A stretch of 64,000 nt of DNA from the human T2T-CHM13v2.0 reference genome, Homo sapiens. The translations under genes and the position numbers were made by a program. Shown here in pieces: positions 54,335-62,704 of the stretch. The stretch is from NCBI RefSeq assembly GCF_009914755.1, contig NC_060926.1. One strand, 5' to 3'. Position 1 is the first letter of the stretch, and each line of letters starts with the position of its first letter. The notes below the pieces were generated by a model, which made no database searches, was not told the origin of the DNA, and was given only the letters and a program-made list of their open reading frames with translations.

Positions 54335-55842
54335 AGATGATGTATTTAAATATCATACCAAACTCTGTGTATTTATATAAAGAGAGACTGTTAAAAGACT
54401 TCATAATATAAAAAAAAACAAAAACAAAAACAAAAAAAAAACTTTACGCTTACCATTGCTGCATATTGTTGCAGTATAAAACACACACTTATCTGGGATC
54501 ATGAGAATACGGCAAGAATGTCCTGCGTAAACTGTAACTTTGACAGCATTTAAAAAATAAAAATCAAATTAAGTGCCTTTGAGGCCACTTCTTCCCAGTT
54601 GCCAGTTTTCTTAACCCGGTACTAAAATACTGCCACACACAGCTGCATGTCTGAGGATCATATTTAAATATTTAAAATGCATCTACAGTCTGTCTTAGTT
54701 TTCTTTATATTTGGGAAAAATTTTGAATCTTAAGTGTGAAAATGTAATCACAAATGTCTTTACCAGGAATAAAAACACATCTAGGGTAGCCAGCAAATTT
54801 AAAGCAAATAAAATATTTTGTAGTCACAGACTAATACTGAGGTCTGTAAAAAGAGTTGAATGAATAATAGACAGACATCAAGGATATATTAGTTCCAACA
54901 CCATCCATTATTGTTTCTATAACCAATAATACTTTAAAAACATTTGTTAATCAAAATAGGCTGACATTGATATAACTATTTATGTGTAAAAATAGTGCAC
55001 GATTTATCTTCCACAAAGCTAGTTTACATCCTAAGAGCTGGTAAACGCTTTTTTTGTTTTTTAATACAGACAGGGCTGAGACTTTGAAAAAAATTAAATT
55101 AAGGCATTCAAAATGGGTAAAGTTGCCTATCATGAAGCATTAGGAAACTGATATAATTAACTTTAAACTTCTTGTTACAGTAACTGCTTAAACATGAACA
55201 TGCAACTTCCATCAGGTACACAGGAATGAGTGATATAAACTCCAACATTATGGCTTTATACAAGTGCATAGTTGCAACTGCAGCAAGTAATGATATCTGA
55301 TTAATGTGTATAAAAAATAAAGTGGGAAGTTTAAAAAACCTTCTTGCAGTATTAGAGTACTATATATATATATATATGTGTGTGTGTTTATATATATATA
55401 CACAGTATAATGGTCACTTCTTAAAGATGCAGTCAATATCACTGTAGTGGAATCCATTCCCAGATTCTTCTGGTAAATGTGCTGGTGAAACCTCTCTGTT
55501 GAAGCTAGAAAAGATGTTTTCTTTAGCCTTTAACTCTTCTCAATCCTTGTGTGCACTGTAGTGTGAGCGACTGCCGAGAGAGCTTTATGGAAAAGTCTGG
55601 AAGAGTTGCATATATCCTTAGTCTATCAACCAATCATTGTTGGTTCAACCTGTTGCTTCAAAGGAGCCCAGATTTGTAATTTATATTACAGGGAAAAGGG
55701 GAACACATATATGTATGAGTGTATGTATCAGTCTCTCAGGAAAATATAGCTTTTTAATAAATTTTGGGCCATCATATTTCAGTCTTGTTTTCACTGGAAG
55801 AATACGATCACCTTGAATAATGACTGCTTTCATAGAAGGCAG

Positions 55843-55846
55843 TTAG
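55843..55846 (-). CDS. ROCK2: ROCK2 terminal exon coding part: C + TAA (completes the final Ser of ...NKPS)
   Basis: Minus-strand acceptor TTTATTTTTTCCTTTCTTTTCAG|CTAACTGCCTTCTATG. Matches my recollection of the ROCK2 stop context and the known SLC66A3-ROCK2 adjacency. Upstream coding exons are outside the window. Confidence 0.85.
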
Positions 55847-57087
55847 CTGAAAAGAAAGGAAAAATAAAGTTAGTTGATACAGTGAAATAATTTAAGAGTG
55901 TTAAATTCCTAGAAAAAGCATTCCATTCACATTATTAAACTATATAGTCTTCCAGCTACTATATTTTTTAACACTAAAATCATGCATAAACATACTTACT
56001 GTATTACTTTTCCTATAGGTACAACATGCAATTATATTCTTTCCCAAAACAACTTGGGATTTTGGAATATTAGCTACACACATTACACACACATTTTAAT
56101 ATGGTTAACAAGCTATTAGGGTTAAACAATATACCACAGAATAACTTAGAAGATAAAGTTTGATTTGGGGTTTAACTGCCAGCTGCCTCATGTAGCTGAA
56201 AGGGAAATGGGCCTATTGATCAGGTTCTACTTGGCTGTTCAACCCTAAGCCACATTTTGTTTTTCTATAAGATAGGACCAACTACATTGTTGTAGTAAAT
56301 ATATACAAGCTACTCTATGAAATCTGATTATAAATAGATACCAGTACTACCTGATTTATGTTTTGCAACTTGCTTACTTACTTAGACTAAAACACACATT
56401 ATTTCTTTTAAATCCTTCTATGTAAAAGGTTTAACTTGAGGCTCAACTTTCATTCAAATCTCCTTTAGCCACTATTAACCAAACTATTTTACATTTTCTA
56501 AAAGCACAATTCTCACAGCGTATCACTGACATTCTTCAGCAAGGGTAACATTAAATTCTCACAAAGCAAACATTTCACAGCACCACACACAAAAATGCCA
56601 AATCAGAAATAGCTATTTCACAGCACTTATTAGACTTATAAAGTTTTTATGCTTTCAATTCTTGCAAGTTGGAAATAAAAGGAGAGAGATGGAGAAAGGA
56701 ATCTCATGCTATGTTCACAAACTAATATAGCTGTAGGAACTTGAAAACGTTGTAAATTTTACTTCTCTTCTGAATATGGCTTCTTTGGAATGAACAGAAC
56801 GTATCAGAATTAACTCCTTTTGTGATTTCTACATCTCATTCCTAAGATAAATTCTAATTGTACTAAAAATTTATAGCCAATAAAGAATCTGAACATAGCA
56901 TTTCACTTTTACACTTAACATGTAAATTTCAGTTAGCAACTTTTCGAAAACTACTTTTAACTATATACTATTAAAAACAAGTTTCAAAAATAAAAAATAA
57001 TGAAAGCCCAAGTGGCAAACCACATGCACTACGTTGAAGTACTAAAATAACTGATTTTTCATTTTTTGATTTACCCCATTTATTTCT

Positions 57088-57178
57088 TCAGAAATCAAAA
57101 ACATCGTCATCATCATCACCACCACCATCAACATCATCAAATGACCAATCCCAGTCTTTAAATGCCAAATCAAGCAAT
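57088..57178 (-). CDS. ROCK2: Candidate alternative ROCK2 C-terminal exon: (R)LLDLAFKDWDWSFDDVDGGGDDDDDVFDF*
   Basis: Acceptor CCTCCTATTGCAG|A at 57178. Open in the same phase (2) as the canonical last exon. TGA at 57090-57088, then AATAAA and a GGG|GTAAAT donor at 57074. Confidence 0.6.
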
Positions 57179-59579: not shown

Positions 59580-59923
59580 CAGTAGTCCCCCCATATCCTT
59601 GTCTTCACTTTCCATGGTTTCAAGTTACCAGTGGTGAACCACAGTCTGAAAACATTAAATAGAAAAGCTCAAAACAACTTAGAAGTTTTAAACTGCCCAA
59701 CGTTGTAAACAGCGTGATGACATCTTGTGCCATCCCACTCTGTCCTGCCTGGGATGTGAGTCATCCCTTTGTCCAGCATATCCATGCTTGTTAGTCACTT
59801 ACTAATGGTCTTCATTATCAGATTTTAAAAAATTGTATGTGTACGGTCCAGTACTATTCGTGATTCCAGGCATCCACTGGGGGTCTTGGACTACATATCC
59901 CTTGAGATAAAGGGGGACTACTG
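59580..59923. mobile_element. MER44-type (Tigger) non-autonomous DNA transposon
   Basis: TIRs CAGTAGTCCCCC / GGGGGACTACTG flanked by TA on both sides. 344 bp. Confidence 0.85.
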
Positions 59924-62699
59924 TAATCAGGCTGATCACTTTTTTTTACATTTAACAGCTATTTCCATAATAATGCCTGCATGCGCCTCATTAATTTTGT
60001 ATGGGGATGAGGCAATCTTTTTTCTCAATGATTTATAAGAACTTTTCGTATGTGAAGATACTAACTCATCTTTCTCATATATTTTGGAAATACATGGTGT
60101 TTTTTAAATTTACAAGGCTTTACTTTTGGGGTAGTTGATCTTTGGCTTTGTTTTCTTTGCTTTTATTATTTGGAAGTTCTTCCCCAATTCAAGATCAGGT
60201 ATATATTCACCTATGGATTTATTTTTGACACTTCAAATTGTATATAACTTCATTATTTTCCCAAGTAGACTGTTAATTCTTTAACATTTAGAAATGAGGA
60301 AGAGCAAAGATAAGATAATAATGACACAATAGCTACTTCCTCCTTTAAGTTTTAACTGTGCTGCCATGTTTTACACTTCTTAAAACTCGGTAAGTGAGCA
60401 TTTGTTACATTTTTGCTTTATACTTTTCTGCATGCATTAAATACTGCGTTAAAAAAAATCTTTAAAAGAAAAATAATTAAAGAGAAATACCCTCTAGCCA
60501 AACTGGTATATAATTTTTTTTTTTTTTTTTTTTTTTGTGTGACGGAGTCTCGCTCTGTTGCCTAGGTTGGAGTGCAGTGGTGCGATCTCGGCTTACTGCA
60601 ACCTCCACCTCCTGGGTTCAAGCAATTCTCTGCCTCAGCCTCCCCAGTAGCTGGGATTACAGGCGCCTGACACCACGCCTGGCTAATTTTTGTATTTTTA
60701 GTAGAGATGGGGTTTCACCATCTTGGCCAGGCTTGTCTTGAACTCCTGACCTCAGGTGATCCACCTGCCTTGGCCTCCCAAAGTGCTGGGATTACAGGTG
60801 TGAGCCACCGCGCCCAGCCCAGACTGGTATATTTTTATCTTGCATTGAAACAAATTAGGACTCCCCAAATTGTCTTCATCAAAAATTAGCATTTTATTCA
60901 CAAATTTCCTACTTTTCCAGTATGGCATTTTAATTTTAATTCAAAAGTACCAAGAAAACATTCCTGTAGAATAGCATTTCTATACATTATTTTTATGAAC
61001 TGTCAATTAATTTCTAGTCTTATTTTATTTTTTTTTTATTTTTATTTTTTGAGACGGAGTCTCACTGTCGCCCAGGCTGGAGTGCAGTGGCGTGATCTCG
61101 GCTCACTACAAGCTCCGCCTCCCGGGTTCACGCCATTCTCCTGCCTCAGCCTCCCGAGTAGCTGGGACTACAAGTGCCTGCCACCACGCCCAGCTAATTT
61201 TTTGTATTTTTTAGTAGAGATGGGGTTTCACTGTGTTAGCCAGGATGGTCTCGATCTCCTGACCACGTGATCCACCTGCCTCGGCCTCCCAAAGTGCTAA
61301 TTTTGTAGGGTGCATGTCTGTAATCCCAACTACTCAGAAGGCTGAGGCAGGAGAATTGCTTGAACCTGGAAGGTGGAGGGTTAGGGTGAACCGAGATCAC
61401 GCCACTACACTCCAGCCTGGGTGACAGAGTGAGACGTCATGTCACAAAAAAAAAGAAAAAAGAAGAGAAAAAGATGTAATGATGTAATGGCAGATGACCA
61501 CAAAGAAAGACACAGAGGAAAAGTTACCAAAAATGGTTAAGTGAACATTTATGGGTTCACTTTATATTTGATGTATCTAACAAAGCCAAACTTTGTTTTA
61601 AGAAGGATACCATGTCAAATTAGTTCAACTAAAGCTAGATTGACTAATGCTAAGACTAATATTAAACAAACTCAAATGAACAGCTAGATGTTAGATCACT
61701 GCTGAGACACACCAGCAATTCTGTGCCTCTGTTTTCTTGGATGACCCTTTACCATTTCCACCCATTTGTATACTGAATGGGCTTTAGTCCAGTAGAATGT
61801 TAAAAACCATCCAGCCTGAGGCTTGATTCCTCCCTGGAACCATGCTACTCAATGAGATTTACAATTTGCCTCTCTGATTGGTTCTTCTTCTAATACATCT
61901 TCCAAGGAAAAGGTCTTTAACTGTTTAGTGCTATTTATGATCTCTCACACTTTCAAATAATGTCTTTAGAGAACAAAATATCCTCAGTTCCTTCGCTTGC
62001 TACATAATACTTTCAAATGACATACTGCAACCTCTGTTATTCTCATCTATATACCATTCAATTTGTATAAGTGACTCTTAAAATGTGACATTCAAAATGG
62101 AATACTGGCCAGGCGTGGTGGCTCATGCCTGTAATCCTAGCACTTTGGGAGGCCGAGGTGGGAGGATTGCTTAAGGCCAGGCATTTGAGACCAGCCTGGG
62201 CAACATAGGGAGACCCCCATCTCTACAGAAAATAAAAACAAAAAAAAATTAGCCAGGTGTCATGGTGCATGTATGTGGTCCCACCTACTCTGGGAGGCTG
62301 AGGTGGGAGAATAATCAGTTGGGCCTGGGAGGTCAAGGCTGCAGTGAGTCATGATCGTGCCATTGCACTCCAGCCTGGGCAACAGAGTGAGACCCTGTCT
62401 CAATAATAATAATAATAATAATAAAATGCAGGTTGATTGATTCATGTAAGAGATACAGACACAATGCTAGGAGTACATGAAACAATGGAGACTCAAATGC
62501 CAAAAACAATGGAAATAATGTTGCAGATGTACAACAAAATCCAAATTATATTATAAATGTGACCACCTTTATGTTTAGAATTTCAAAGAATGTATTAAAT
62601 GAATTTTTTCACAAAATATACACTACACATTTTACAGTCAATTTTGATATTAGTTTTATTTACATGCAGATATGAGGGAAAGAAATCCTTACTACTTAC

Positions 62700-62704
62700 C
62701 GTTG
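62700..62704 (-). other. ROCK2: Candidate 5-nt ROCK2 microexon CAACG
   Basis: Minus strand TTTTGTCATAG|CAACG|GTAAGT, with a 105-nt AG-free upstream zone and UGCAUG and ACUAAU downstream. Confidence 0.5.

What the first reader, a model, noticed from the sequence alone, without database searches (positions are those of the whole stretch)
55808..62704. Possible combinatorial C-terminus switch for ROCK2, including a dual-frame exon and a membrane-anchor-like tail
Seen by translation: skipping both candidate exons gives ...KPS*. The microexon alone gives ...KPSNANCLL*. The 104-nt exon alone gives the acidic tail. Both together give ...KPSNDCLIWHLKTGIGHLMMLMVVVMMMTMFLISEEING|LTAFYESSHYSR*, because the 104-nt exon is also fully open in the shifted frame and runs into a third frame of the last exon (stop 55810-55808). 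That frame has a 16-residue hydrophobic run. All stops fall in or very near the last exon, so none should trigger NMD. Established: the related kinase DMPK uses a small frame-shifting splice choice to swap C-terminal membrane-anchoring tails. Inference: ROCK2 may have an analogous tail code. Caveat: Met/Val richness follows automatically from shifting GAT/GGT repeats.
Basis: inference. Interest (0 to 1): 0.75.

Follow-up and report, generated by a model that had tools for sequence, protein, structure and literature searches.

The report
ROCK2 tail exons: one ancient relic
The last intron of human ROCK2 holds one conserved alternative exon that gives the kinase an acidic tail and the decayed remnant of a second ancient tail exon, and the proposed membrane-anchor tail is a side effect of codon make-up with no sign that it is ever made.

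Summary
Exon 32 ends in AG, so the 104-nt exon alone gives ...KPR plus the acidic tail, not ...KPS.

**104-nt exon (57178-57075).** It is annotated and ancient. Its tail occurs in 67 of 201 fetched vertebrate ROCK2 proteins, from sturgeon to mammals. A cassette in the same intron is regulated in mouse muscle (PMC7532667 Table S3).

**5-nt "microexon".** It is unannotated. It is the last 5 nt of a second ancient exon, 62766-62700. In 16 of 201 proteins, from gar to platypus and camel, that exon encodes S-SGPALRIILH-stop. The human copy reads SGLAL-stop-IILH-stop and has AC where the acceptor AG must lie. This relic accounts for the strong donor, the 105-nt AG-free tract and the downstream TGCATG.

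**Shifted frame.** Its openness and hydrophobicity are automatic:
- The frame is open in 18685 of 20000 codon shuffles.
- 17871 of those open shuffles look transmembrane-like.

No fetched protein carries either microexon-dependent tail.

**Verdict.** A real tail switch exists in vertebrate ROCK2. The dual-frame membrane-anchor idea is unsupported.

The parts
62700..62766 (-). Relic of ancient alternative exon A (67 nt). It reads T + SGLAL-stop-IILH-stop, followed by 33 nt of non-coding exon end.
   Evidence: The six-frame scan of the window plus 1 kb found one match to the conserved tail of other vertebrates. It scores 9 of 11 positions including the final stop, against at most 7 in 30 shuffles. 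The sequence is printed. The stretch is unique in the genome.
62767..62768 (-). Place where exon A's acceptor AG must lie. The human sequence reads AC.
   Evidence: Orthologous proteins read ...KP-S-S-G-P, so the exon must start one base before the Ser codon that aligns with human TCT. The two bases before it are AC. No orthologous DNA could be fetched, so the ancestral base is inferred.
62700..62704 (-). It is the stretch between the first AG after the AG-free tract and exon A's donor.
   Evidence: It is not in the hub's RefSeq table. No protein with its tails is among the 201 fetched.
62707..62811 (-). 105-nt AG-free tract. It comprises a T-rich polypyrimidine run (T14), the AAAAAC, and the body of exon A.
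   Evidence: Only 6 of 4675 AGs on this strand have an AG-free tract of 100 nt or more.
62694..62699 (-). Consensus donor GTAAGT, shared by exon A and the 5-nt candidate.
62663..62668 (-). TGCATG (RBFOX-type hexamer) 32 nt into the intron after that donor.
   Evidence: There are 25 TGCATG on this strand in 64 kb. Binding has not been tested.
57075..57178 (-). Alternative exon B (104 nt). It encodes Arg (junction codon) plus a 29-residue acidic, aromatic tail. The stop is at 57090-57088.
   Evidence: Hub RefSeq table (exon of other transcripts); translation. The tail is conserved in 67 of 201 vertebrate ROCK2 proteins. The exon is unique in the genome. A mouse cassette lies in the same intron.
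57023..57028 (-). TGCATG 47 nt into the intron after exon B's donor.
58198..59333 (-). Annotated alternative exon of other transcripts. If joined to exon 32 it would add Arg plus 16 residues and a stop.
   Evidence: Hub table; sequence, translated by eye. No such tail occurs among the 201 proteins.
52159..55846 (-). Last exon. The canonical stop is at 55845-55843.
   Evidence: Hub table

Best explanation
The last intron of ROCK2 splits the final Ser codon after its second base. It is an old site for swapping the protein's C-terminal tail.

**Three outcomes across vertebrates**
- Skipping both exons gives ...KPS.
- Exon A gives Ser plus a 10-residue tail of the SGPALRIILH type and its own stop.
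- Exon B gives Arg plus an acidic, Trp/Phe-rich tail with its own stop.

**State in human**
- Exon B is intact and annotated.
- Exon A is a relic. AC stands where its acceptor AG should be, an invariant Pro is Leu, and the invariant Arg codon is TGA.
- The relic's polypyrimidine tract, strong donor and downstream TGCATG survive.
- The first AG after the tract lies 5 nt before the donor.

**The Met/Val-rich tail**
- It is what any +1 reading of GAT/GGT/GTT-rich codons gives.
- It is very probably never made in meaningful amounts.

**Shown**
- The homology of the relic.
- The conservation of both tails.
- The automatic nature of the shifted frame.
- A regulated cassette in the mouse last intron.

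**Inferred**
- That human exon A is dead.
- That both exons answer to RBFOX-type factors, a reading that rests only on TGCATG within 50 nt downstream of each exon.
- That the acidic tail works as a short binding motif, or damps the neighbouring basic, membrane-binding C-terminus.
For: - **Exon 32.** It ends in AG and is 214 nt long.
- **Tails.** Among 201 vertebrate ROCK2 proteins there are 42 plain Ser ends, 67 exon B tails and 16 exon A tails.
- **Sampling caveat.** The second search was ranked on an exon A tail, so these are not frequencies.
- **Exon A carriers.** Platypus, Antechinus, camel, two turtles, Sceloporus, four frogs, a caecilian, sturgeon, paddlefish, gar, bowfin and arowana.
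- **Exon B conservation.**
  - The first 16 residues are identical in 50 of 67 tails.
  - The last six are DDVFDF in 56.
  - Tail lengths run from 24 to 48 residues.
- **Human relic.**
  - It lies at 62766-62700.
  - It matches 9 of 11 positions, against at most 7 in 30 shuffles.
  - AC stands at the acceptor place.
- **Local signals.** The AG-free tract is 105 nt. TGCATG lies at +32 and +47 of the two donors.
- **Uniqueness.** Both stretches are single-copy in the genome.
- **Mouse (PMC7532667 Table S3).**
  - A Rock2 skipped exon lies at chr12 16982650-16982747.
  - It sits between a 214-nt exon and the terminal exon.
  - Its inclusion differs by 0.256 in Rbm24-knockout muscle (P 1.37e-7).
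- **Shifted frame.**
  - It is open in 18571 and 18685 of 20000 codon shuffles.
  - 17871 of the 18685 open shuffles reach Kyte-Doolittle 1.6, and 3262 reach the observed 2.36.
Against: - No RNA data for human could be consulted, so use of the 5-nt piece is not excluded.
- The surviving T14 tract, the perfect donor and the TGCATG could still drive splicing to the first AG downstream.
- Aligners and annotation pipelines often miss 5-nt exons, so absence from RefSeq is weak evidence.
- No orthologous DNA was available.
  - The ancestral AG and CGA are inferred from proteins.
  - The time of decay is unknown.
- Only one human haplotype was read.
- The protein database is clustered at 90% identity.
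  - Placental or primate isoforms with exon A, or with a microexon tail, could be hidden inside clusters.
- The mouse cassette is 97 nt by the table's coordinates. About 98 nt are expected from rodent tails, and its identity with exon B rests on position and length alone.
- Mononucleotide and dinucleotide shuffles give an open shifted frame in only 935 of 20000 and 175 of 5000. The judgment of 'automatic' depends on taking the acidic frame as primary.
Confidence: 0.78

Rival explanations
1. In human, a 5-nt microexon and the 104-nt exon are chosen independently, giving four C-termini. The double inclusion reads exon B in a second, selected frame and yields a tail-anchor-like membrane segment, as in DMPK.
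For: - The translations are correct, and all stops lie in or near the last exon.
- The 19-residue window scores 2.36 on Kyte-Doolittle and is followed by 17 residues, which is tail-anchor-like.
- The site has a strong donor, a long AG-free tract and a downstream TGCATG, as exon B does.
- One orthologous genomic ORF keeps the shifted frame open.
- The DMPK precedent holds.
Against: - The site's signals are inherited from a 67-nt exon that carries its own stop in other vertebrates. A dual-frame reading therefore cannot be ancient.
- An open and hydrophobic shifted frame is expected in 93% of codon shuffles, and 96% of those look transmembrane-like.
- 0 of 201 proteins carry such tails.
- Nothing is annotated at 62700-62766 (hub table).
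- No paper on a ROCK2 microexon was found:
  - None of the 4 I opened from the 21 hits describes one; the other 17 were judged from the 15-row listing only.
  - There was nothing in the MicroExonator supplements.
  - There was nothing in 12 of 19 supplement files of PMC7935315.
Confidence: 0.04
2. The 5-nt piece is spliced in at a low level in human as a by-product of the lost exon A acceptor. The branch point and T14 tract still engage, and the second step takes the first AG downstream. This produces minor transcripts with the short NANCLL-type end or the shifted tail, and they have no function.
For: - The first AG after a 105-nt AG-free tract lies 5 nt before a consensus donor.
- A T14 run and yUnAy-like candidate branch sequences lie upstream (read by eye).
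- TGCATG lies downstream.
- That the first AG after the branch point is chosen is established knowledge of the second step of splicing (recalled).
Against: - The AG would lie about 85 nt from the likely branch point, which usually lowers efficiency (recalled).
- A 5-nt exon is hard to define.
- There is no annotation and no protein evidence (hub table).
Confidence: 0.2
3. Exon A is still a working exon in people, through another allele with AG at 62768-62767 or an unusual acceptor. The T2T haplotype is then not representative.
For: Only one haplotype was read. The rest of the exon's signals are intact.
Against: - Three independent changes sit in 36 nt: AC at the acceptor place, Pro to Leu, and Arg to stop.
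- With the stop, the tail would be cut to five residues.
- RefSeq lists no exon there (hub table).
Confidence: 0.04

Closest known systems
DMPK C-terminal tail switching (isoforms A-F, tails 1-3)
   Same: It is a kinase of the same DMPK/ROCK branch (recalled). Alternative splicing near the 3' end gives three tail versions conserved between species (passages of PMC2778554).
   Different: - DMPK tails 1 and 2 are true membrane anchors. The conserved ROCK2 tails are a 10-residue LRIILH-type end and an acidic tail, and neither has a transmembrane-length hydrophobic run.
- In ROCK2 each cassette brings its own stop. No conserved frame-shift choice is involved.
ROCK2m, the muscle isoform with a 171-nt (57-residue) insert exon
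   Same: It is in the same gene, is muscle-regulated, and responds to Rbm24 and Rbfox2 in mouse (PMC7532667 Tables S3 and S5).
   Different: It is an internal in-frame insert far upstream of the last intron. The Rbfox2 event shared in Table S5 is this exon, not the last-intron cassette. Singh et al. 2014 could not be read.
Neuronal and muscle microexons (3-27 nt, RBFOX/SRRM4/PTBP1-regulated)
   Same: It has the right length, a strong donor, a long tract between the branch region and the AG, and a downstream GCATG.
   Different: - It is not conserved as a microexon, because orthologues use a 67-nt exon.
- Its length is not a multiple of three.
- It has no TGC next to the acceptor (flank, read by eye).
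- It is not in the catalogues searched.
Exon death by splice-site loss (pseudo-exons)
   Same: An anciently conserved cassette whose acceptor dinucleotide and reading frame are damaged in one lineage, while the neighbouring signals persist.
   Different: The lineage and date of the loss could not be established here.

Membership tests
Tail-anchored membrane protein signal | One hydrophobic segment of transmembrane length close to the C-terminus | tested here: met
   In the hypothetical double-inclusion translation only, the best 19-residue window scores Kyte-Doolittle 2.36 and 17 residues follow it. The same is reached by 17871 of 18685 open codon shuffles at the 1.6 threshold, so it carries no weight.
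Tail-anchored membrane protein signal | The segment is part of an expressed protein | tested here: not met
   0 of 201 fetched ROCK2 proteins carry it. The shifted-frame search gave one unspliced genomic ORF. Nothing is annotated there (hub table). Human RNA data were not available.
Conserved regulated microexon | Exon of 3-27 nt conserved as such in other vertebrates | tested here: not met
   Orthologues encode a 10-residue tail from a longer exon that ends at the same place.
Conserved regulated microexon | Transcript evidence or a catalogue entry | tested here: inconclusive
   It is not in the hub's RefSeq table. There is no Rock2 row in the 8 supplement files of PMC7821500 or in 12 of 19 files of PMC7935315. 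The supplements of PMC8627023 are not held.
Conserved regulated microexon | Regulatory motifs near the exon (GCATG downstream; TGC by the acceptor) | tested here: inconclusive
   TGCATG lies at +32. No TGC occurs in the 30 nt before the AG. The motif is equally explained by exon A.
DMPK-type alternative C-terminal tails | Alternative splicing at the 3' end gives distinct tails conserved across species | tested here: met
   There are three tail classes across vertebrates, human exon B is in RefSeq (hub table), and a mouse cassette exists.
DMPK-type alternative C-terminal tails | At least one conserved tail is a membrane anchor | tested here: not met
   The exon A tail has 10 residues. The exon B tail has 12 acidic residues among 30 in human.
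Clathrin-box / AP2-appendage binding motifs | Match to L-hydrophobic-x-hydrophobic-[DE], PWxxW, FxDxF, DP[FW] or Wxx[FW]x[DE], as defined in PMC5694535 | tested here: not met
   0 of 68 exon B tails (67 database tails plus human) match any of them. LLDLA misses only the last position.

The most novel reading that the evidence does not exclude
In the human lineage, loss of exon A's acceptor turned an ancient 67-nt tail exon into a 5-nt frame-shifting microexon. That microexon is still driven by the old polypyrimidine tract, donor and RBFOX-type site. In RBFOX-rich tissues it is co-included with exon B and gives a new Met/Val-rich, tail-anchor-like end on a fraction of ROCK2, a lineage-specific membrane-tethered form of a drug-target kinase.
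Probability: 0.04. Interest if true: 0.7.

Novelty: new member of a known kind. Interest (0 to 1): 0.35.

Why it matters
- **The protein.** ROCK2 is a central regulator of the actin cytoskeleton and a drug target. Its C-terminal PH-C1 region and basic end hold it at membranes.
- **The open question.** Two alternative tails directly behind that region have been kept from ray-finned fish to mammals. That argues they have a function, yet I found no paper that names them.
  - There were no hits for the tail peptides.
  - Nothing relevant turned up. Not every listed paper was opened.
- **Human difference.** Human appears to have lost one of the two tails. Results from mouse, frog or fish on that isoform would then not carry over to people.
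- **For the scan.** A striking open, hydrophobic second frame in an Asp/Gly-repeat exon is expected by chance. A well-signalled microexon can be the stump of a dead exon.

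Tried and rejected
- **Chance alone for the 5-nt site.**
  - First favoured, because the bare pattern is common.
  - Given up after the AG-free-tract count, and replaced by the relic explanation.
- **Singh et al. 2014 as a description of these exons.**
  - A sentence in PMC7532667 speaks of 'C-terminal exons of Rock2'.
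  - The paper itself is not held.
  - Table S5 of PMC7532667 shows that the Rbfox2-shared event is the 171-nt exon, so the lead was dropped.
- **A ROCK1 counterpart.**
  - ROCK1 has the same phase-2 last intron, about 2.2 kb long.
  - It has no acidic open frame and no AG...GTRAGT candidate with a long AG-free tract.
- **Repeat origin.** Both exon regions are single-copy.
- **A search with the acidic tail alone.** I used the exon 32 peptide instead.
- **Clathrin/AP2 motif membership of the acidic tail.** Not met.
- **Earlier notes of this scan.** They were closed to the session.
- **Papers opened that held ROCK2 only in reference lists or on other events.**
- **Not done.** No splice-site scoring model was available. 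I made no structure or complex prediction.

Full report
**1. The observation**

On the minus strand the window shows three elements:
- a 5-nt stretch CAACG (62704-62700) between TAG and GTAAGT;
- a 104-nt exon (57178-57075) between CAG and GTAAAT;
- the last ROCK2 exon, starting at 55846.

The third-frame stop falls at 55810-55808.

I fetched the next 10 kb of the same chromosome and found exon 32.
- It ends ...LAPNKP plus AG at window-equivalent 64552.
- It is 214 nt long.
- The split codon is therefore AG|C = Ser for the canonical form and for the 5-nt piece.
- It is AG|A = Arg when the 104-nt exon follows directly. The acidic isoform ends ...KPR plus 29 residues, not ...KPS.

The hub's RefSeq table lists 57075-57178 and 58198-59333 as exons of other ROCK2 transcripts. 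It lists nothing at 62700-62766.

**2. Is the 5-nt site more than chance?**

The bare pattern is common.
- AG, 1-30 bases, then GTRAGT occurs 41 times on this strand of the window.
- The 5-nt version with GTAAGT occurs 3 times, 2 of them in this intron.

The site is nevertheless unusual.
- Its AG follows 105 nt without any AG.
- Only 6 of 4675 AGs on this strand, and 0 of 4660 on the other, have 100 nt or more.
- It is the only one of these followed by GTRAGT within 30 nt.
- TGCATG, the RBFOX-type hexamer (25 on this strand in 64 kb), lies 32 nt into the downstream intron.
- Another TGCATG lies 47 nt behind the donor of the 104-nt exon.

I chose these features after looking, so the odds are rough. 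They still called for an explanation.

**3. What the site is**

A search with the 70-residue exon 32 peptide returned vertebrate ROCK2 proteins: 762 hits, of which the best 120 were kept.

Their ends fall into classes. Besides the plain Ser end and the acidic tail, camel, platypus and a caecilian end in Ser plus SGPALRIILH or a near variant.

A scan of the window plus 1 kb for that peptide gave one match, at 62765 on the minus strand.
- It reads SGLAL-stop-IILH-stop.
- It lies directly upstream of the 5-nt piece.
- It scores 9 of 11 positions including the terminal stop, against at most 7 in 30 shuffles of the 65 kb.
- The stretch is single-copy in the genome.

A second search, ranked on the last 40 residues of the platypus protein, found the same tail in more species: a marsupial, two turtles, a lizard, four frogs, sturgeon, paddlefish, gar, bowfin and arowana.

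In all, 16 of the 201 proteins fetched carry it. The sample is enriched by that ranking and is not a frequency.

I call it exon A (62766-62700, 67 nt). In other vertebrates it carries its own stop.

Three things are wrong with the human copy:
- the two bases where the acceptor AG must stand read AC;
- the Pro that is present in 15 of 16 tails is Leu;
- the Arg that is invariant in 16 of 16 is TGA.

The long AG-free tract is the old polypyrimidine tract plus the exon body. The donor and the TGCATG are the old exon's signals. I could not fetch orthologous DNA, so the ancestral bases and the date of decay are inferred.

**4. The 104-nt exon (exon B)**

Its tail is in 67 of the 201 proteins. Carriers are rodents, a squirrel-led cluster of 586 members, a cat, buffalo, hedgehog, an opossum, birds, turtles, geckos and other squamates, frogs, caecilians, sturgeons and paddlefish.

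Conservation is strong at both ends.
- The first 16 residues are identical in 50 of 67 tails.
- The last six are DDVFDF in 56.
- The acidic middle varies in length, and tails run from 24 to 48 residues.

The exon is unique in the human genome, at the DNA level and in six-frame translation.

ROCK1 shares the phase-2 last intron inside its final Ser codon. It has no counterpart of either exon in its 2.2-kb intron.

Mouse RNA-seq supports a regulated cassette at this place (Table S3 of PMC7532667, supplement).
- It lists a Rock2 skipped exon at chr12 16982650-16982747.
- The exon lies between a 214-nt exon and the terminal exon.
- Inclusion differs by 0.256 in Rbm24-knockout muscle (P 1.37e-7).
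- Its length is 97 nt by those coordinates. That fits the rodent form of exon B (about 98 nt from the tails) and not exon A.
- I could not compare the sequences themselves.

**5. The dual frame and the membrane-like tail**

I shuffled the 29 codons of the acidic frame.
- The shifted frame stays open in 18571 of 20000 trials and in 18685 of 20000.
- Among the 18685 open trials, 17871 contain a 19-residue window at Kyte-Doolittle 1.6 or more.
- 3262 reach the observed 2.36.

Less apt nulls give lower figures for an open frame:
- 935 of 20000 mononucleotide shuffles;
- 175 of 5000 dinucleotide shuffles;
- 2144 of 9128 genomic 104-nt windows.

GAT, GGT and GTT read one base on give Met, Val, Leu and Phe, and almost never a stop.

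A search with the contiguous 52-residue genomic ORF of the shifted frame found one candidate, P0202.
- It is an unspliced ORF from another species.
- It runs through both intron flanks.
- It shows that the frame is open there too, with one codon fewer.
- It is not a spliced isoform.

None of the 201 proteins ends in either microexon-dependent tail. Clustering at 90% identity could hide such forms.

In species with an intact exon A, co-inclusion of A and B would stop in A. A second reading of exon B cannot be an old, selected feature.

**6. How it most likely works**

*Shown.* There are three tail classes in vertebrates. Each cassette has its own stop. The human exon B stop lies 13 nt before the exon end, so it should escape nonsense-mediated decay by the usual 50-nt rule (recalled).

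*Inferred.*
- Both cassettes are switched on by RBFOX-type, and for exon B RBM24-type, factors in muscle, heart and brain.
- Human has kept exon B and lost exon A.
- The acidic tail has 12 acidic residues among 30 and conserved Trp and Phe.
- It sits right behind the basic end of exon 32.
- My best guess is that it is a short binding motif for a partner (about 45%).
- The next guess is that it folds back on the basic, membrane-binding C-terminus and weakens membrane attachment (about 35%).
- It does not meet any clathrin-box or AP2-appendage consensus given in PMC5694535 (passages): 0 of 68 tails match.

Whether the 5-nt stump is ever spliced in human cells stays open.

**7. Comparison with what is known**

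- **DMPK.** It makes three tail versions by splicing, and isoforms A-D are tail-anchored (passages of PMC2778554). ROCK2 works like this in that splicing swaps tails. It is not the same kind of switch, because no conserved ROCK2 tail is a membrane anchor.
- **ROCK2m.** The known ROCK2m event is a different, internal exon.
- **Print record.**
  - I found no paper that names either tail; the peptide strings gave 0 papers.
  - Searches gave nothing on last-intron exons in the papers I opened.
  - Singh et al. 2014 is not held.
  - The tails are present in public gene models, so the exons themselves are known to annotation.

**8. Verdict**

- The specific claim of a microexon, a dual-frame exon and a membrane anchor is not supported.
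- New here: the microexon is recognised as the stump of a deeply conserved exon that looks dead in human.
- Interest is modest.

Noticed in passing
window 58198-59333 (-): This annotated alternative exon starts after a weak acceptor (TATAG). If joined to exon 32 it would add Arg plus 16 residues and a stop. None of the 201 orthologous proteins has such a tail, and its 3' end abuts a masked repeat. It looks lineage-specific.
   Followed up: partly
window 55986-55981 and 56030-56025 (-): Two more TGCATG lie 139 and 183 nt upstream of the last exon's acceptor. Five of the 25 on this strand fall in the 8.2 kb of the last intron held in the window.
   Followed up: no
L012 and L015 (G000:C18:21128700-21140354): ROCK1 has the same architecture as ROCK2. 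Exon 32 ends ...GKT plus AG, and the last exon supplies one base and TAA. The split of the final Ser codon therefore predates the ROCK1/ROCK2 duplication.
   Followed up: partly
L013 (G000:C18:270594-273773): A second chromosome 18 match to the exon 32 peptide has an internal TGA. It looks like a ROCK1-derived pseudogene copy.
   Followed up: no
proteins P0002, P0003 and 37 others: 39 of 201 database proteins end in ...KPR. That is what reading straight into the intron gives (AGG then TAA). They look like unspliced or truncated models, not a fourth tail.
   Followed up: partly
proteins P0039, P0056-P0058, P0073: Bird-like contig proteins continue after ...KPR with RWHKSCYL... for up to 47 residues. 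This is probably intron read-through where the intron has no early stop.
   Followed up: no
It is reached through a different, unconserved upstream piece, so it is likely a prediction artefact.
   Followed up: no
window 62769-62787 (-): A run of 14 T followed by AAAAAC stands directly before the exon A relic. Such runs vary in length between people, which could affect any residual splicing here.
   Followed up: no
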